From Armatimonadota bacterium (GTDB taxonomy: Bacteria; Armatimonadota; HRBIN16), in assembly GCA_963677485.1 (NCBI GenBank), contig OY781964.1, forward strand, positions 1,280,001-1,344,000: a DNA stretch of 64,000 bases. Reading direction: 5' to 3'. The stretch's first letter is position 1; every line of letters starts with the position of its first letter. Below are positions 15,049 through 20,866 of the stretch, one piece after another. The position numbers and the translations under genes are program-made. The notes under the pieces were generated by a model that was given only the letters and a program-made list of their open reading frames with translations, was not told the origin of the DNA and ran no database searches.

Positions 15049-16539
15049 ATGCTTAATGCCCCTGATGTAAAGCTTGCGCTGGTCGGCGTCAGCCGCGACT
15101 GTTTCCCCATCGAACTCACCCGAACACGGCTAGGCAAGCTGGCCGAGGCCTGCAAAAAGATCGGTCTGGATGTTTACGTGGCCGAAACCGTGATCGAAAA
15201 TGAGGTTGATTCGAACGCTGCGCTGGACGAGGTGCTCGCGAATGGCGCCAACGCCGCCGTGGTCTACCTGGGCAACTTCGGCCCCGAAGGCCCGCTCAGC
15301 ATCTTCGCGGAGCAGTTCCCCGGCCCGGTGATGGCCTGCGCGGCCGCGGAAGAGTCCGGCAATAACTTGATACAGGGCCGCGGCGATGCTTATTGCGGCA
15401 TGTTGAATGCTAGCTATAACTTCAGCCTGCGGCAGGTCAACGTGCATATCCCCCAAATGCCCGTTGGCTTGGTGGATGAACTGGCTGAGAAGATCGCCCA
15501 TTTCGAGACGGTCGCCCGCATCGTGATCGGTGTGTGGAACCTGAAGATATTCGGATTTGGCCCACGGCCGCAGGACTTCTTTGCCTGCAATGCGCCGATC
15601 AAGCCGTTCTACGACCTGGGCGTTGAGGTGATGGAGAACAGCGAGCTCGACATGTTCGAGCAGTTCAACAAAACATCAGGCGAGGACGCTGAAGTGAAGG
15701 CCGTTCTAGCCGATATGACAAAGGAGTTGAACAACTGCTGCGGAAACAACCATCCGGGGATACTTCCCAAGCTGGCCCGTTTTGAAGTGGCACTACTCCG
15801 ATTCGCAGAGAAGAACATCGGCAGTCGTGACTTCGCCGTCTTCGCCAACAAGTGCTGGCCCGCGTTTGAAACCAGCTTCGGATTCGTGCCCTGCTTTGTC
15901 AACAGCCGCCTGAGCAGCCGCGGCATCCCGGTGGCATGCGAAGTAGACCTGTATGGCGCGCTCAGCGAGTATATGTGCTATCTGGCAAGCTGCCAGCCTG
16001 CCACCTTGCTGGATATCAACAACACTGTGCCCCGCGACATGCTGAAAGGTGCTGACCTGAAGGGTGCCGCAGTTGACGACCTCTTTATGGGATTCCACTG
16101 CGGAAACACCCCCAGTTGCTGCATGAAGAACTGCAGCATGAAGCACCAGTTGATCATGAACCGCCTGCTGGAAGACCCCACCAAGGAGCCAGACATCACC
16201 CGAGGCACACTCGAAGGCCAACTGAAGCCCGGTGACACCACCTTCTTCCGTCTGCAGGGTAATGCAGCCGGCAAGCTGGTGAGTTACGTGTGCGAGGGCA
16301 GCATCCTGGATATCGATCCGCGCAGCTTCGGCTGTATCGGCGTGTTCGCCATCCCCAACTTCGGCCGCTTCTACCGCCATGTGCTCATCGGCAAGCAGTT
16401 CCCGCACCATGGCGCCGTGGCCTTCAGCAAGGTCGGCAAGGCGCTGTATGATGCGGCCTTGATGCTGGGTGTGGAGGATATGAACGTGCCGCTACCCGCC
16501 AGCATGTGGTATCCCACCGAGAACCCGTTCGAGCTTTAG
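15049..16539 (+). CDS. L-fucose/L-arabinose isomerase family protein
   Basis: 'GNFGPE', 'RGDAYCG', 'KCWP', 'ACEVD', 'FHCGN', 'FPHHGA' motifs. Confidence 0.8.
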   Translation: MLNAPDVKLALVGVSRDCFPIELTRTRLGKLAEACKKIGLDVYVAETVIENEVDSNAALDEVLANGANAAVVYLGNFGPEGPLSIFAEQFPGPVMACAAAEESGNNLIQGRGDAYCGMLNASYNFSLRQVNVHIPQMPVGLVDELAEKIAHFETVARIVIGVWNLKIFGFGPRPQDFFACNAPIKPFYDLGVEVMENSELDMFEQFNKTSGEDAEVKAVLADMTKELNNCCGNNHPGILPKLARFEVALLRFAEKNIGSRDFAVFANKCWPAFETSFGFVPCFVNSRLSSRGIPVACEVDLYGALSEYMCYLASCQPATLLDINNTVPRDMLKGADLKGAAVDDLFMGFHCGNTPSCCMKNCSMKHQLIMNRLLEDPTKEPDITRGTLEGQLKPGDTTFFRLQGNAAGKLVSYVCEGSILDIDPRSFGCIGVFAIPNFGRFYRHVLIGKQFPHHGAVAFSKVGKALYDAALMLGVEDMNVPLPASMWYPTENPFEL

Positions 16540-16574
16540 AGCGGCGTTGGTGGGACGGGACGGGACCGGTTGAC

Positions 16575-16595
16575 GGGCGCGGAGACCGCGCCCCT
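16575..16595 (-). repeat. GTAG-family REP interrupted by IS110 (left part)
   Basis: GGGCGCGGAGACCGCGCCCCT; adding the AC found after the IS right end restores the exact reverse complement of 18396-18418. Confidence 0.85.
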
Positions 16596-16607
16596 TGTAT
16601 GCTTATA

Positions 16608-16812
16608 GATGGAGGTCCTCAGACCTTAACCCAAGACTTGAGGACCATCCTCACACCGGGACGCTGGGGTGAAAGAGAAGGGGTAGATGCCGTCGCGCCC
16701 CTTGTAGCTTTGACTACGCGACGTAGAATGGCACCCTTCTCTGCAATGACCTAACACGAACAGTATCATGGGCTAAAGCCCGCATTTACAAGGATGTCAA
16801 GGTTGATTGCTT
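16608..16812 (+). ncRNA. IS110 bridge RNA (5' hairpins, target-binding loop, donor-binding loop)
   Basis: CGCGCCCCT 16694-16702 and CGTAG 16722-16726 match the target; ACAGTATC 16760-16767 and TACAAG 16787-16792 match the donor junction; each pair lies in an internal loop closed by stems. RNA ends are approximate. Confidence 0.85.
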
Positions 16813-16845
16813 CACCTGTGTCCCTAACTAGGAGCATACCGGACT

Positions 16846-18009
16846 ATGCAAATCAATGGCAACTCGTACAGCTACTACGCTGGGATCGACATATCTAAAG
16901 ACACTTTCGACGTGTCGGTCGTTGATCAAGACGGCACCCATCTGATCCACAAGCAGTTTGTGAACAACCAGAAAGGCTTCAAAGAGCTGGTGTCACTCAC
17001 CAGGAAGCAAGGCTGGATGCCTGTGCTATTCGCAATGGAAGGCACTGGCGGATGTGAGCAAAAGCTGCTTGACTACCTGTATAAGCATAAGCAGGCAGTC
17101 TCACGGCAAGAACCCTGTCGAATACACTATCATCGCCTCTCACAAGGATCTCGGCAAAAGACAGACTATGTAGACAGCCTGATCATTGCTGACTACGCAC
17201 TAAAGAACCGCCTGCGGCTCTACATTCCTAAAGGCGAAAGCTATCGGGCGCTGCAGGAGATCGGTCGCACACGGCGCATGCTGGTCAGACACCGGAACTC
17301 CCTGCAGCAGAGGCACTCTCACGCGCAGAACCTGCATGCCAAAGCGGTTCTTCAACGCAGCATAGATCACTGCACAGAGGATATCGATCTTTTGAACTCC
17401 GCGGCTGCTGAGATTATCGCCAGCAATGACAGGCTAGCGGAAGATTATCGCCTCCTGAACAGTATTCCGGGTGTAGGTGATATCACATCCAACTACTTTC
17501 TAGGGCTCATCGGTGATATATCTTGCTTTGCGACGTCTGCGAAGATAATCCGATTTGTGGGTATGAACCCATGCCCGCACCAGTCAGGAACCAGCATCGA
17601 TTCCGAAAGCAGCATATCCAAAATGGGCGATCCCTACATGCGCTCCTTGTTATACACCAGTGCCATGGCTGTATTACATATGGTGGATCACAATTCGAAA
17701 GCACTCCATCGCATGTATCGGTTCGTGGCCAAAATGCGGGAGAGATTCGGCCCGAGTTCTAGCAGGAAGGTCGTATGCGCGGTGATGCGCAAGCTGCTGA
17801 TCTTGATGTGGGCTGTGTTGACCAGGCGTAAGGTTTACGATCCGTGCTACGGACTAGAGCCGCAGGATGCTCCGGCCAACCAGACACCGCAATCCGACGA
17901 CACTGGCCTTGTCCAGTCTCGTGCCGAAGCGGCCTCAGATTTTGCCGGCGAAGGCAATGATGCTGGGCAGGACAGTGGCGTTCCAGGATTGGGATGTCTG
18001 GATGGATAG
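16846..18009 (+). CDS. IS110-family DEDD transposase / bridge recombinase
   Basis: 'GIDISK', 'AMEGTG', 'KTDYVD' (DEDD), 'SIPGVG', 'HQSG' (catalytic Ser), 'ISKMG...RSLLY', 'AVMRKL'; AGGAG RBS. Confidence 0.95.
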   Translation: MQINGNSYSYYAGIDISKDTFDVSVVDQDGTHLIHKQFVNNQKGFKELVSLTRKQGWMPVLFAMEGTGGCEQKLLDYLYKHKQAVSRQEPCRIHYHRLSQGSRQKTDYVDSLIIADYALKNRLRLYIPKGESYRALQEIGRTRRMLVRHRNSLQQRHSHAQNLHAKAVLQRSIDHCTEDIDLLNSAAAEIIASNDRLAEDYRLLNSIPGVGDITSNYFLGLIGDISCFATSAKIIRFVGMNPCPHQSGTSIDSESSISKMGDPYMRSLLYTSAMAVLHMVDHNSKALHRMYRFVAKMRERFGPSSSRKVVCAVMRKLLILMWAVLTRRKVYDPCYGLEPQDAPANQTPQSDDTGLVQSRAEAASDFAGEGNDAGQDSGVPGLGCLDG

Positions 18010-18364
18010 CCACCGTGTGGTTCATCCTTGGCCCCAAGTGGTTGAGCAGCATTCCAGAGCCGGCGAGTCAGCGGTAGAAAGATATGATCACCACTAGCTA
18101 GCTGCTCTTGATCTAGCCGCTAAAATGAACATCATTAGAACGTTATCTTTAAAGCCTCAAAGATGCGGGGTGGGCGTTCATCACTACGGATGACGGGCAA
18201 CCCTTTGCATAACGGTGCATCTTCGCGTGGGACCGGCTTGTGCCATGAGCTTGGGTATACCTAAGGTCTATTTGCCACATTGCATAATATAAACGTTGTC
18301 CGCAGAACGTTATGGGCATAAATCTGGTATTTCGGACAAATACCAGATTTCACCCTCGGAGGCC

Positions 18365-18385
18365 TTGACAAATAACACAGTATCT
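18365..18385 (+). promoter_or_regulatory. Outward-facing -35 box in the IS right end; forms a promoter with the left-end -10 on circularisation
   Basis: TTGACA (18365-18370), 17-nt spacer across the junction, TATGCT (16598-16603). Confidence 0.8.
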
Positions 18386-18395
18386 ACGGTCAATT

Positions 18396-18524
18396 GTAGG
18401 GGCGCGGTCTCCGCGCCCAATGTATTCCGCGCCCACGGGCGACGGCCGGTCGCCCCTGTGATCATCTGTCTCCCGATTGACGTACGACCTTCCTATTCGC
18501 GTTCATTCGCGTTCATTCGCGGTT
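18396..18524. repeat. REP cluster: GTAG-REP, a second REP-like palindrome and a 10-nt tandem repeat
   Basis: GTAGGGGCGCGGTCTCCGCGCCC; GGGCGACGGCCGGTCGCCCC; (ATTCGCGTTC)x2 followed by ATTCGCGGTT. Confidence 0.7.
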
Positions 18525-18577
18525 AAACATACCCTACCGGAAAAGTGACGAGTAGGACAGGCGGCTGCCCTACCGCG

Positions 18578-20866
18578 TTATTTCGCCGGTTGGATCGTGA
18601 ACCGGTCGATTCGGATGGCTTTGATGTTCGGGTTCACTATCGGTGCCACAAACAAGTACATGCCCGGCGTGAGCTCGATCCCTTTATACACCATCTGCTG
18701 ATAGCCAGGCTTGATATCAGCCACAGTCAGCACACTGGTTGTCGTCTTTTCGGTGATTTTGTTACGTATGCCAAACTGCAGCACGCCATCGGTTGGCTGG
18801 CCGGCTTTACCTTCAGCGGGTATCACCTTCACCTCCAGGCTGACATCTACTTTGGGCCACTTCACCTCACCTTCGTAGATGTGGTGCTGCACGGCCCACT
18901 CGGTATGGCTGCACGGCATCTCCGCGGCGTAGCCGTTGCTGGCTTCTGGGTCCTTCACGATATTGACCCAGTTCCCCTCTTCAGCCAGGTTGAAGTCACC
19001 CTCTTGTGCATCCAGCCAGTCCACCCCTTGGACCCCGCTCACGCCCATCGCTGTGTCCGCTTTGGGATAGCTGGGAGGCGGTGCGATCTTGGCCTTGAGC
19101 TGAGTGCGAAAGCCCTCATCCCACTTACGGCCTTCACTGGGCCAGTTGTTTCCGGTTTGGTTGCTCAAGTCCGTGAAGTGATCCACTATGGTGTCCCAGT
19201 TGATCCCTGGCACCTCTTGATGTGCCTGTGCGAGGTTGCGTTTGGTGTTGATCAACACCAGATCCAGTGCCAGGCGTTGAATCTGCACGCGTTTCAGCAA
19301 CGTCGGGTTGTTCTTGACGGCCGCTTCGGCTTGATCGTATAGCCTCTTGAACTTCGTCAGCTCATCGATGTTGTAGTAGTCCGCATTACCGATGTAGCAC
19401 GAAAGCCGCACACCCGAACGTTTGCGGGCCGCTTCCATCGCCAGCACCGCTTCGAGCAGCGGCTTGCCAGCCGGACCGTAATACCCATCCATGAACTCCT
19501 TCATGATGGGCAGTTCGGGCTGGTAGGGGTTCCACATCAGCTTGGACAGCAGATAGACCTTCAATGGATGCATGGTGGAATCCACGTTGAAGCTGTCGCC
19601 TTGTTCAAACATGCCCACCACGTTGTTCTCAGTGAAGCTGCGCAGGTCGGACCCAAGGATGCTGAAGTTCGGGTGAGGAATGAGATAGCTTGAGAAGTCC
19701 ACGACGTAGTTCCATACATACAGCCGTTTCGCGATCTTTTTCCAGTCCGTAAGGTCCTTATAGAATGACTTATTCTCTGCGGCTGTGATAGGCTTGCCAA
19801 AGTCATTCTCGATGCTGCACAGACGCACAATCACGTTGTCGCGCGGTTTAATGTTGGTAGGCGCATGGCGAGTATACTGGTATGCCAGTGTCTCCACAAG
19901 GAAGTCGGGGTACTGCTTTTCAATTTCAACGGCCACGTCGTTGACGAAGCTGATCAGAGCACCAGATTCGGAGCCAGTCTTCTTGACCAGTTCTTTGCAC
20001 TTGTCACACTGACAAGGACTCATATCGTCATTCTGCGTGATAGAGATCATGCCGGCATCGGGCTGTTTGCGAATGGTGTCCAGCGCGACCTTCACCATCT
20101 CCCGCTTCATATCCTCATTGGTCAGGCACATCTGGGTGTAACCACCGTCACGCTTACCGTTGATCAGCGAATACCACTCAGGATGCTGCGCATAGTATTT
20201 AGCGGCAGGCAGCATTTTGTCGAAGGTATGCACAAATCCCAGCAGGTTGTAATGCCCGCCCATCTCGGGCTTGATCTGTTGATGGTGCCCATTCATGCGC
20301 ATATGCACAGGGAAAAGGTCATCCTTCTGTATCACGTTGTAGAAATAGGCCTCGCGATACATCAGCTTGGGTGTGTAACAAACATTCATGGCTGGCACAG
20401 TGATGGTCTTTAACTTGGGAATACGCTGCGCATCCGGGGCATACCAACGCACGCCCAGTTTCGTCTCCAGCAGCTCCTGCACCGCGTAGATGCTGCCCCT
20501 GGGACGATCACCAGATAGTATCAGGTCGCGGCCAGTGGTGCGGATCAGGATGCCATCACGGCGAAGCTGCTCCCAGTTGAAGCCCTTCATCAGCCGTTTG
20601 ACCACGGCGGTCTGACCCACAAATATCCGCGTGCCTGCGGAGGGTGCAATATCGGTGATTTTCAACCGGGCACCACTCATCTGCTGGATCGTGTCCGCGA
20701 GTTGTTTCGCAGCAAACCGCTCCGGCGCGGTGGCGTCCGTGCCCAGCACGATGGTGGCGGTCGGCTTTCCCGATTTCACGACAGTCAACGGCGAGGCTGC
20801 CTTGGCGGGCAGGCTGGCCAACACCAGCAACGGCAAAATGCACGGAATGAGATCACAGACATTCAT
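18578..20866 (-). CDS. Secreted DUF4838 protein with GH67/GH20-like N-terminal domain (paralog 1)
   Basis: Signal peptide; 'ERFAAKQL', 'RGSIYAV', 'QMCLTN', 'CQCDKC', 'TLAYQYT', 'KLMWNP'. Confidence 0.8.
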   Translation of the reverse strand: MNVCDLIPCILPLLVLASLPAKAASPLTVVKSGKPTATIVLGTDATAPERFAAKQLADTIQQMSGARLKITDIAPSAGTRIFVGQTAVVKRLMKGFNWEQLRRDGILIRTTGRDLILSGDRPRGSIYAVQELLETKLGVRWYAPDAQRIPKLKTITVPAMNVCYTPKLMYREAYFYNVIQKDDLFPVHMRMNGHHQQIKPEMGGHYNLLGFVHTFDKMLPAAKYYAQHPEWYSLINGKRDGGYTQMCLTNEDMKREMVKVALDTIRKQPDAGMISITQNDDMSPCQCDKCKELVKKTGSESGALISFVNDVAVEIEKQYPDFLVETLAYQYTRHAPTNIKPRDNVIVRLCSIENDFGKPITAAENKSFYKDLTDWKKIAKRLYVWNYVVDFSSYLIPHPNFSILGSDLRSFTENNVVGMFEQGDSFNVDSTMHPLKVYLLSKLMWNPYQPELPIMKEFMDGYYGPAGKPLLEAVLAMEAARKRSGVRLSCYIGNADYYNIDELTKFKRLYDQAEAAVKNNPTLLKRVQIQRLALDLVLINTKRNLAQAHQEVPGINWDTIVDHFTDLSNQTGNNWPSEGRKWDEGFRTQLKAKIAPPPSYPKADTAMGVSGVQGVDWLDAQEGDFNLAEEGNWVNIVKDPEASNGYAAEMPCSHTEWAVQHHIYEGEVKWPKVDVSLEVKVIPAEGKAGQPTDGVLQFGIRNKITEKTTTSVLTVADIKPGYQQMVYKGIELTPGMYLFVAPIVNPNIKAIRIDRFTIQPAK

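What the first reader, a model, noticed from the sequence alone, without database searches (positions are those of the whole stretch)
16594..16845. Fully readable IS110 bridge RNA guiding insertion into this genome's REP family
Seen: the 250-nt non-coding left end folds into 5' hairpins (16608-16649, 16651-16672) and two large stem-loops. Loop 1 is closed by AGAGAAGGG/CCCTTCTCT and TGCCGT/ATGGCA. It carries CGCGCCCCT (16694-16702), identical to the 9 nt of left target flank including the CT core (16587-16595), and CGTAG (16722-16726), the reverse complement of CT-ACG at the right flank. Loop 2 is closed by GCAATGACCT/AGGTTGATTGC. It carries ACAGTATC (16760-16767), identical to the right end up to the core C, and TACAAG (16787-16792), the reverse complement of CT-TGTA at the left end. 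Established: this is the target-binding/donor-binding loop layout of IS621-type bridge recombinases. From recall, the donor junction ACAGTATCTTGTAT and the loop context (ATGCCGT-guide-TG; ACAGTATCATGG...ATTTACAAGG) closely resemble IS621, but the target guide is different. Inference: a naturally reprogrammed bridge recombinase from a distant lineage. The class is known, but this ortholog and target specificity may be new and usable as a tool.
Basis: partly seen in the sequence, partly recalled or inferred. Interest (0 to 1): 0.93.

Follow-up and report, generated by a model that had tools for sequence, protein, structure and literature searches.

The report
IS110 insertion sequence with bridge RNA
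This is an intact mobile element of the known IS110 type whose own small RNA carries readable guides for its insertion site and for its own ends, so it is a well-read new example of a known system, not a new kind of system.

Summary
Window 16596-18385 is a 1790-bp IS110-group insertion sequence. It has a 250-nt left end, a 387-aa DEDD/Ser recombinase gene (16846-18009) and a 376-nt right end, with CT cores on both sides.

The left end folds into a 5' stem-loop plus two stem-loops with internal loops.
- Loop 1 carries CGCGCCCCT, identical to the left flank, which is the 3' arm of a REP hairpin plus the CT core. It also carries CGUAG, complementary to CT-ACG on the right.
- Loop 2 carries ACAGUAUC, matching the right end, and AUUUACAAG. 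The latter pairs with CT-TGTAT of the left end in the discontinuous scheme solved for IS621.

Relatives give the strongest evidence. Four lineages at 84-87% recombinase identity keep the RNA backbone but differ in the first guide, and each sits beside a matching hairpin. A 46%-identical family with 12 copies in the same genome shows compensating guide/target and guide/donor changes. A covariance model built from these RNAs finds the same structure upstream of 33 of 77 distant IS110 genes.

No RNA, circle or empty site was observed. Verdict: a genuine new member of a known kind, of moderate to low interest.

The parts
16575..16593 (+). REP-type hairpin of the target: GGGCGCGG / AGA / CCGCGCCC. 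Its 3' arm is the left target.
   Evidence: Read; folds as an 8-bp hairpin. The same geometry holds in all five lineages compared.
16587..16595 (+). Left target plus core CT (CGCGCCC+CT), identical to the left target guide.
16596..18385 (+). The insertion sequence (1790 bp counting one CT core, at 18384-18385).
   Evidence: The second copy in the genome shares window 16590-18388. Boundaries are the same in 8 copies of the sister genome and in 2 metagenome contigs with both ends; a third contig shows the same left boundary only.
16598..16603 (+). Candidate -10 hexamer TATGCT of a promoter that forms only when right end and left end are joined.
   Evidence: In-script junction check: TTGACA, 17 nt, TATGCT. 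No sigma-70-like site on the + strand in the integrated left end. Inferred, not shown.
16608..16652 (+). 5' stem-loop of the RNA.
   Evidence: 4 pairs with compensating changes in the 46%-identical family.
16668..16816 (+). Core of the bridge RNA: closing helix, target-binding loop and donor-binding loop (model R1).
   Evidence: 94.5% of cells paired against 34-44% for slid controls; 8 pairs with compensating changes among 5 sequences.
16674..16742 (+). Target-binding stem-loop.
16694..16702 (+). Left target guide CGCGCCCCU.
   Evidence: Identical to 16587-16595. This position differs between lineages in step with their flanks.
16720..16726 (+). Right target guide CGUAG (16722-16726), with a possible extension GA (16720-16721).
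   Evidence: Complementary to CT-ACG at copy 1. The 7-nt form matches CT-ACGTC at copy 2. ACG follows the core in 7 of 8 copies in the sister genome.
16727..16728 (+). Dinucleotide at the position of the target-loop handshake guide (AA).
   Evidence: Position by analogy with IS621 A81/U82. The first A can pair with donor T7, the second cannot pair with A6. Inferred.
16743..16810 (+). Donor-binding stem-loop.
16760..16767 (+). Left donor guide ACAGUAUC.
   Evidence: Identical to the right end at 18377-18384. Same 8-nt length, and followed by A-U, as described for IS621 A123-C130 and A131-U132.
16784..16792 (+). Right donor guide AUUUACAAG (discontinuous).
   Evidence: Pairs with CT-TGTAT (16594-16600) in the IS621 scheme. 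The 12-copy family has G and U at two guide positions, matching C and A in its own left end.
16830..16834 (+). Ribosome-binding site AGGAG, 11 nt before the ATG.
   Evidence: Read.
16846..18009 (+). Recombinase gene (387 aa). Catalytic D15, E65, D107, D110 and S247; a clade-specific tail from about residue 330.
18010..18385 (+). Non-coding right end: hairpins conserved in relatives, -35 TTGACA at 18365-18370, left donor ACAGTATCT at 18377-18385.
18386..18390 (+). Right target ACGGT.
18399..18418 (-). Inverted second copy of the REP hairpin on the right flank; on the minus strand it is itself a near-target (CGCGCCCCT|ACA).

Best explanation
Window 16596-18385 is an intact insertion sequence of the IS110 group that works like IS621.

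Inferred cycle: the element excises as a circle. Joining right end to left end brings a -35 (TTGACA) and a -10 (TATGCT) 17 nt apart. From that promoter, a roughly 200-nt bridge RNA is made from the left end. The DEDD/Ser recombinase binds this RNA.

Guides shown by sequence and by comparison:
- The other loop pairs with the circle junction ACAGTAT-CT-TGTAT.

Strand exchange at the CT core would then insert the element just 3' of a GC-rich REP hairpin whose 3' arm is the left target.

Shown here: element boundaries, protein family and catalytic residues, RNA fold with covariation, and guide/target and guide/donor matches that change together in relatives. Inferred only: transcription, circle formation and activity.
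For: Protein
- Pfam PF01548 (E 1e-26) and PF02371 (E 4e-21). NCBIfam NF033542 scores 189.6 bits against a cut-off of 140.
- The IS621 and ISCro4 recombinases are the only PDB matches.
- D15, E65, D107, D110 and S247 align with the residues that PMC11208158 names as catalytic (D11, E60, D102, D105, S241).

RNA
- Fold z-score -4.7.
- The consensus of 5 lineages has 69 pairs, 13 of them with compensating changes.
- A hand-set 44-pair structure is 94.5% paired, against 34-44% when slid.
- Model R1 hits exactly 14 places in the 5.2-Mb genome, all in left ends of the two IS families.
- R1 hits 33 of 77 distant IS110 loci (27 at E < 0.01). Every hit is on the gene strand and ends 0-122 nt before the protein match. 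On that alignment, which is fitted to the model, 42 of 44 pairs have compensating changes and 87.8% of cells are paired, against 39-47% when slid.

Guide versus left flank, identities of 9
- This element: 9 at copy 1, 7 at copy 2.
- L062: 8, and the mismatch is G.T-compatible.
- L063: 8.
- Sister-genome family: 9 in 6 of 8 copies, 8 in 2 of 8.
- 12-copy family: 9 in 6 of 12, 8 in 5 of 12, 6 in 1 of 12.
- The cognate flank is the best match in 4 of 5 guide rows and tied in 1.

Donor side
- The 12-copy family's left end is CT-AGTAC instead of CT-TGTAT, and its guide changes A to U and A to G at the two partner positions.
- The junction 14-mer equals the IS621 donor printed in PMC13396178.

Copies
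- Two copies differ by 4 substitutions and one 3-nt insertion, so they duplicated recently.
Against: - No transcript, circle junction or empty site was seen.
- Only one of the two copies is intact. The other is split by a 2.56-kb insertion.
- In the naked-RNA minimum-energy fold, 4 of the 9 left-target-guide bases are paired.
- Rfam 15 gave no match at E <= 1, so there is no curated model to confirm membership.
- I could not align the real IS621 RNA. A blastn search of 5,426 E. coli genomes found nothing. The nucleotide-by-nucleotide comparison therefore rests on the text of PMC11208158.
- The left donor guide of the sister-genome family has one mismatch to its own right end (ACAGTAAC against ACAGTATC).
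- The -10 hexamer is only 4 of 6.
Confidence: 0.9

Rival explanations
1. The element is a true IS110/bridge-RNA element but is no longer mobile in this genome. The guides are readable relics.
For: Only 2 copies exist, one of them disrupted. By contrast, the co-resident family has 12 copies. Only 1 perfect free 12-mer site is left in the genome.
Against: The reading frame is open and all five catalytic residues are kept. A ribosome-binding site is present. The RNA loops of the two copies are identical, and the copies differ at only 5 places in 1790 bp. Close relatives have 8-9 copies in the sister genome.
Confidence: 0.2
2. The loop/flank identities exist because the left end captured a piece of a REP, or because REP-rich DNA makes such matches easy. 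The loop would then not be a guide.
For: The 9-mer is part of a repeated family. CGCGCCCCT occurs 39 times in the genome, and base composition alone predicts about 70. The guide is GC-rich and partly self-complementary.
Against: Only the 9 loop positions differ between lineages whose backbone is otherwise almost invariant, and each version equals its own flank, including a quite different hairpin family (GTCATCCCT). The donor loop shows the same logic, with compensating changes. In distant loci, the predicted guide best matches the point where a conserved element start begins in 13 of 25 evaluable loci (14 if L136, offset by 1 nt, is counted).
Confidence: 0.03
3. It is an IS1111-type element that uses a seekRNA encoded in the long right end, and the left-end structure is incidental.
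For: The right end is long for the IS110 group (376 nt) and has blocks and hairpins conserved between the 46%-identical families.
Against: Both guide loops lie in the left end. The model of the left-end RNA finds homologues upstream of distant IS110 genes. The end layout and the donor 14-mer are those of IS621. I found no guide-like match to the flanks in the right end, but I only read the alignment and ran no systematic search.
Confidence: 0.02

Closest known systems
IS621 of Escherichia coli (bridge recombinase and bridge RNA; PDB 8wt6; PMC11208160, PMC11208158)
   Same: Same two protein domains and the same five catalytic residues. RNA in the left end with a 5' stem-loop, a target loop and a donor loop. 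CT core. Guide lengths and order match: 9-nt left target guide preceded by C-G-U and followed by U; GUAG right target guide; 8-nt left donor guide followed by A-U; 9-nt discontinuous right donor guide ending ..CAAG, then G. Donor junction ACAGTAT-CT-TGTAT is identical. It inserts into REP sequences (title of Choi et al. 2003 as cited; the paper itself was not held).
   Different: The recombinase shares only about 30% identity (my estimate from the alignment) and is 387 aa against 326 aa, with a conserved C-terminal tail. The target guide differs. The apical stem-loop of the donor loop is shorter (about 12 nt against 22 nt, from the numbering). The guide has A where IS621 has G161, giving a canonical pair with donor T12. 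The second handshake position is A instead of U. The right end is 376 nt.
ISPpu10 of Pseudomonas putida (preprint 10.64898/2026.03.19.712850; abstract and section 7 read)
   Same: The target is a REP whose left target forms the 3' arm of a GC-rich stem-loop. REP targets often occur as convergent pairs, as they do here (16575-16593 and 18399-18418).
   Different: A role for the hairpin in recognition was tested there and not here. The host and the guide sequence differ.
The co-resident 12-copy family in the same genome (1818 bp, e.g. G000 2863785-2865602)
   Same: Same RNA architecture (hit by R1 at 132 bits), same right end ACAGTATCT, same C-terminal tail.
   Different: 46% protein identity. 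Guide ACCGCCCCU for a different REP (GGGCGGTTCGCGAACCGCCC). Left end CT-AGTAC with matching guide changes.

Membership tests
IS110 family, IS110 group (bridge recombinase elements) | Recombinase with an N-terminal DEDD RuvC-like domain and a C-terminal Tnp domain. | tested here: met
   PF01548 at residues 12-156 and PF02371 at 202-287. NF033542 scores above its cut-off.
IS110 family, IS110 group (bridge recombinase elements) | Catalytic D, E, D, D and Ser conserved. | tested here: met
   D15, E65, D107, D110 and S247 align with IS621 chain residues 13, 62, 104, 107 and 243. These equal the native D11, E60, D102, D105 and S241 named in PMC11208158, assuming a 2-residue tag offset.
IS110 family, IS110 group (bridge recombinase elements) | No terminal inverted repeats; a short core dinucleotide (CT) present at both junctions. 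| tested here: met
   CT at 16594-16595 and at 18384-18385. The boundaries are fixed by independent copies.
IS110 family, IS110 group (bridge recombinase elements) | Long left end, short right end. | tested here: inconclusive
   The left end is 250 nt (met). The right end is 376 nt, long for the group as described in the Extended Data Fig. 10 legend of PMC11208160.
Bridge RNA (IS621 type) | Left-end RNA with a 5' stem-loop and two stem-loops that each carry an internal loop. | tested here: met
Bridge RNA (IS621 type) | [quoted passage not shown] | tested here: met
   9 of 9 and 5 of 5 at copy 1. The pairing changes in step across 5 lineages.
Bridge RNA (IS621 type) | The second loop pairs with the right-end/left-end junction of the circle. 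| tested here: met
   8 of 8 for the left donor and 7 of 7 for the right donor in the discontinuous scheme. Two compensating changes occur in the 12-copy family.
Bridge RNA (IS621 type) | The RNA is expressed from a promoter rebuilt at the circle junction and binds the recombinase. | not testable with these tools
   Only the hexamers and the 17-nt spacing can be read. The runs found are kept as contigs, which cannot show RNA ends.
Bridge RNA (IS621 type) | Recombination depends on the guides. | not testable with these tools
   Needs the plasmid assay.
Bridge RNA (IS621 type) | Match to a curated RNA family model. | tested here: not met
   Rfam 15 gave 0 matches at E <= 1 over 16300-18600. I do not know whether Rfam holds a bridge RNA family, so this says little.
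IS1111 group (seekRNA) | Guide RNA encoded in the right end, short left end, long subterminal inverted repeats. | tested here: not met
   The guides are in the 250-nt left end.

The most novel reading that the evidence does not exclude
The element and its relatives form a separate, deep-branching subfamily of bridge recombinases. They share at most 35% identity with anything else found among 5.8 billion proteins. They have a conserved 55-100-aa C-terminal extension and a long right end with conserved hairpins. In this reading, these additions give an extra function, for example recognition of the REP hairpin itself or of a host factor. The two co-resident families would then be naturally orthogonal systems that divide the genome's REP variants between them.
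Probability: 0.15. Interest if true: 0.55.

Novelty: new member of a known kind. Interest (0 to 1): 0.3.

Why it matters
It is a clean natural illustration of how bridge RNAs are reprogrammed. Recombinases 84-87% identical carry four different first guides, each matching the hairpin repeat of its own insertion site.

Two diverged systems with different target and donor guides also coexist in one genome. Such a pair could be tried as orthogonal tools.

The principle, the architecture and the REP-hairpin targeting are all already published. The finding therefore adds an orthologue and does not open a new question.

Tried and rejected
- Rfam scan of 16300-18600 at E <= 1: no match.
- blastn (distant mode) of the whole element against the E. 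coli genomes, to fetch IS621: no match. No direct RNA alignment with IS621 was therefore made, and I did not type IS621 from memory.
- P0007 (326 aa) was checked as a possible IS621. It is only a relative (E 6e-52).
- Phylum-wide search: of the 400 other genomes searched, only the sister genome G003 has a close relative at E <= 1e-50 (order-level search).
- Laying contigs of runs X1, X2, X3 and X5:
  - Contigs cover both junctions of the inserted element.
  - No contig joins the right end to the left end.
  - The one joint across the element (16594 to 18399, with 14 other letters between) looks like another REP locus, not an empty site.
  - The 'other letters' at 17026, 18127, 18244 and the CCA after 17710 are the differences of the second genomic copy, not strain variation.
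  - These are contigs, so they say nothing about RNA.
- Orthologous locus in the sister genome G003: both flanking genes are present with a 226-bp spacer and no element. The spacer is not alignable and has no matching REP, so it is not a usable empty site.
- Tail of the recombinase against Pfam at E <= 10: nothing for this element, and one weak chance-level hit (Grg1, E 0.15) for the 12-copy family.
- IS-free 'REP + CT + first 7 nt of the left end' sites were followed up and found weak.
- Guide/flank test in distant loci. Of 33 model hits, 5 were dropped for lack of an aligned first loop (L065, L076, L098, L099, L137) and 3 had under 60 nt upstream. Of the 25 left, 13 had their best match directly abutting a conserved element start (14 if L136, offset by 1 nt, is counted). 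In the other 11 the best match lay elsewhere or was no better than shuffled guides.
- Supplementary files of the papers were closed. The lists of predicted orthologues in PMC11208160 may already contain this element or its relatives.
- I ran no literature search for this particular element. I make no claim that it is unpublished beyond.

Full report
**What is in the sequence**

Between a gene ending at 16539 and a minus-strand gene ending at 18578 lies a 1790-bp element, 16596-18385, bounded by CT at 16594-16595 and 18384-18385.

Its parts are:
- a 250-nt non-coding left end;
- an open frame at 16846-18009 (387 aa), preceded by AGGAG;
- a 376-nt non-coding right end.

The boundaries do not rest on this one copy.
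- A second copy in the same genome shares window 16590-18388 and sits in different flanks. Its gene is split by a 2.56-kb insertion. It differs from the window copy at only 5 places, none of them in the two guide loops.
- Eight copies of an 84%-identical relative in a sister genome, and two metagenome contigs with both ends, start and end at the same bases. A third contig (L064) shows the same left boundary only.

**The protein**

- Pfam finds DEDD_Tnp_IS110 and Transposase_20.
- NCBIfam's 'IS110 family RNA-guided transposase' model scores 189.6 bits against a cut-off of 140, over residues 11-329.
- The only solved relatives are the IS621 and ISCro4 recombinases (E 1e-24 and 9e-23).
- In that alignment, D15, E65, D107, D110 and S247 fall on the residues that PMC11208158 names as catalytic: D11, E60, D102, D105 and S241 (passages seen). 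The offset of 2 between PDB chain and native numbering is consistent for all five.

**The RNA**

The left end folds much better than shuffles (z -4.7). Its elements are a 5' stem-loop (16608-16652), a small hairpin, and two long stem-loops closed by a common helix (16668-16673 with 16811-16816).

A consensus fold of five lineages gives the same picture, with 13 of 69 pairs showing compensating changes. For a 44-pair structure that I set by hand, without pairs inside the guide loops, 94.5% of cells pair against 34-44% when partners are slid. Eight pairs change on both sides. That test has only five sequences, four of them close.

A covariance model built from them (R1) gives two further results.
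- In the 5.2-Mb genome it finds 14 places at E <= 0.01. These are the two copies of this element and the 12 copies of a second family, and nothing else.
- I gave it 77 of the 80 fetched metagenome loci, leaving out the three close relatives. These loci encode IS110 proteins only 23-34% identical to this one. R1 finds a match in 33 of the 77 (27 at E < 0.01). Every match is on the gene's strand and ends 0-122 nt before the protein match.

On that alignment, 42 of 44 pairs have compensating changes and 87.8% of cells pair, against 39-47% when slid. The alignment is fitted to the model, which favours the structure.

So the RNA belongs to a widespread structured family in IS110 left ends. This is what PMC11208160 describes.

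**The guides**

Loop 1 holds CGCGCCCCU (16694-16702), identical to the 9 nt of flank ending in the core (16587-16595). It also holds CGUAG (16722-16726), complementary to CT-ACG on the right.

Loop 2 holds ACAGUAUC (16760-16767), identical to the right end, and AUUUACAAG (16784-16792).

PMC11208158 gives the IS621 layout nucleotide by nucleotide:
- a C-G-U linker, then a 9-nt left target guide, then U;
- a GUAG right target guide followed by a two-base handshake guide;
- an 8-nt left donor guide followed by A-U;
- a right donor guide in which A-U, two flipped U, then five bases pair with CT-TGTAT.

The sequence here fits each of these points. At the position where IS621 has a G.T wobble with donor T12, it has an A.

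The junction of right and left ends, ACAGTAT-CT-TGTAT, equals the donor sequence printed for IS621 in the methods of PMC13396178.

**Evidence from relatives**

Four lineages with recombinases 84-87% identical keep an almost invariant RNA backbone but differ in the first guide. Each sits next to its own version of the sequence:

| Lineage | Guide | Left flank |
|---|---|---|
| This element | CGCGCCCCU | CGCGCCCCT |
| L062 | CGUGCCCCU | CATGCCCCT (the mismatch is G.T-compatible) |
| L063 | GUGGCCCCU | GTTGCCCCT |
| Sister genome | GUCAUCCCU | GTCATCCCT (9 of 9 in 6 of 8 copies, 8 of 9 in 2) |

A fifth lineage is a 12-copy family in the same genome with a 46%-identical recombinase.
- Its guide ACCGCCCCU lies beside ..ACCGCCCCT: 9 of 9 in 6 copies, 8 in 5 copies, 6 in 1 copy.
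- Its left end begins CT-AGTAC instead of CT-TGTAT.
- Its right donor guide carries U and G where this element has A and A, which restores both pairs.

In a guide-by-flank table, the cognate flank is the best match in 4 of 5 rows and tied in one. The close guides of this element and L062 do not discriminate between each other's sites.

In all five lineages the left target is the 3' arm of a GC-rich hairpin.

The second copy of this element sits in a site with 7 of 9 left matches and a 7-nt right match. That fits the tolerance for distal mismatches reported for natural elements.

**The REP claim**

The flank is a hairpin, GGGCGCGG-AGA-CCGCGCCC, with an inverted second copy 13 nt to the right of the element.

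Genome-wide counts:
- one free perfect 12-mer site;
- 10 sites with a perfect left half and one right mismatch;
- 46 sites with one left mismatch and a perfect ACG. Of these, 26 are CCCGCCCCT|ACG from the commonest variant, and 37 of the 46 have the hairpin.

The guide thus addresses a REP superfamily, but exactly matches only a minor variant.

**Expression and activity are inferred only**

- Joining the ends puts TTGACA (18365-18370) 17 nt from TATGCT (16598-16603).
- The integrated left end has no sigma-70-like site on the plus strand.
- Public runs that hold the sequence are kept as contigs. They show both junctions but no circle and no empty site.
- The orthologous spacer of the sister genome is too diverged to serve as an empty site.
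- In the naked-RNA fold, four bases of the left target guide are paired. The pairing is not conserved.

**Comparison with what is known**

Everything tested places the element in the IS110 group with an IS621-type bridge RNA. REP-hairpin targeting is also described for ISPpu10.

PMC11208160 reports covariation over 2,201 donor pairs and 5,511 target pairs, and concordant target motifs for natural guides. Natural reprogramming is therefore already established.

What is particular here:
- a small clade with at most 35% identity to other proteins found;
- a conserved C-terminal tail;
- a long right end with conserved blocks;
- two diverged families sharing one genome.

**Verdict**

- The element is a new member of a known kind.
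- Interest is 0.3.

Noticed in passing
window 17833-18006 (residues about 330-387); L055 2509-2778: The recombinases of this element, of the 84-87% relatives and of the 46%-identical 12-copy family share a conserved C-terminal extension (ANQ..D..G.VQ.RA.AA..AG.GN..G..GC.DG). It lies beyond the end of the NCBIfam IS110 model and beyond IS621's length. It has no Pfam family.
   Followed up: partly
G000 721k-3304k (12 places, e.g. L055 1243-3060): A second bridge-RNA insertion sequence family has 12 copies (10 of 1818 bp; 2 of 1802 bp with a split frame). It targets a different, perfectly palindromic REP (GGGCGGTTCGCGAACCGCCC). Its right end is the same as this element's, but its left end and right donor guide differ.
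   Followed up: yes
G000 3495660(+), 2307949(-), 1378727(+), 1083739(-), 1658457(+); 264922(+), 1990840(+), 2010709(+), 3436709(-), 2869711(-), 2382961(-): These sites have no insertion sequence, yet ..CCCT is followed by exactly the first 7 nt of the left end of one of the two families (TGTATGC or AGTACGC). In most of them (at least 8 of 11) a recognisable REP-type hairpin precedes the CT. The control is weak: 3 and 5 occurrences after [GC]CCCT against a mean of about 1 per heptamer, and two of the sites are copies of one repeat. Footprint, mimicry and chance are not resolved.
   Followed up: partly
G000 2668304-2670866 (inside the second copy of the element): A 2.56-kb insertion splits the recombinase gene of the second copy. 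CTCTA is present on both sides, which suggests a 5-bp target duplication by another mobile element.
   Followed up: no
window 18010-18385: The right end has blocks conserved even in the 46%-identical family: a hairpin ATCTTT..AAAGAT (about 18145-18170), GGTCTATTTGCCA, and a hairpin AAATCTGGTATTT..AAATACCAGATTT (18320-18350) just before the -35. Their function is unknown.
   Followed up: partly
G000 137803-138987(-), 1100948-1102132(+), 3874741-3875925(+); 2573923-2575029(-): Two further IS110-family lineages are present, with three copies (two carrying an in-frame TAA) and one copy. They score above the NCBIfam cut-off but are not hit by the bridge-RNA model R1.
   Followed up: no
window 18488-18531: A short tandem repeat of a TTCGCGTTCA-like unit has 10-25 times the contig depth of its surroundings in all four runs laid. 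Similar units appear next to other REPs in the genome. It is probably another dispersed repeat family.
   Followed up: no
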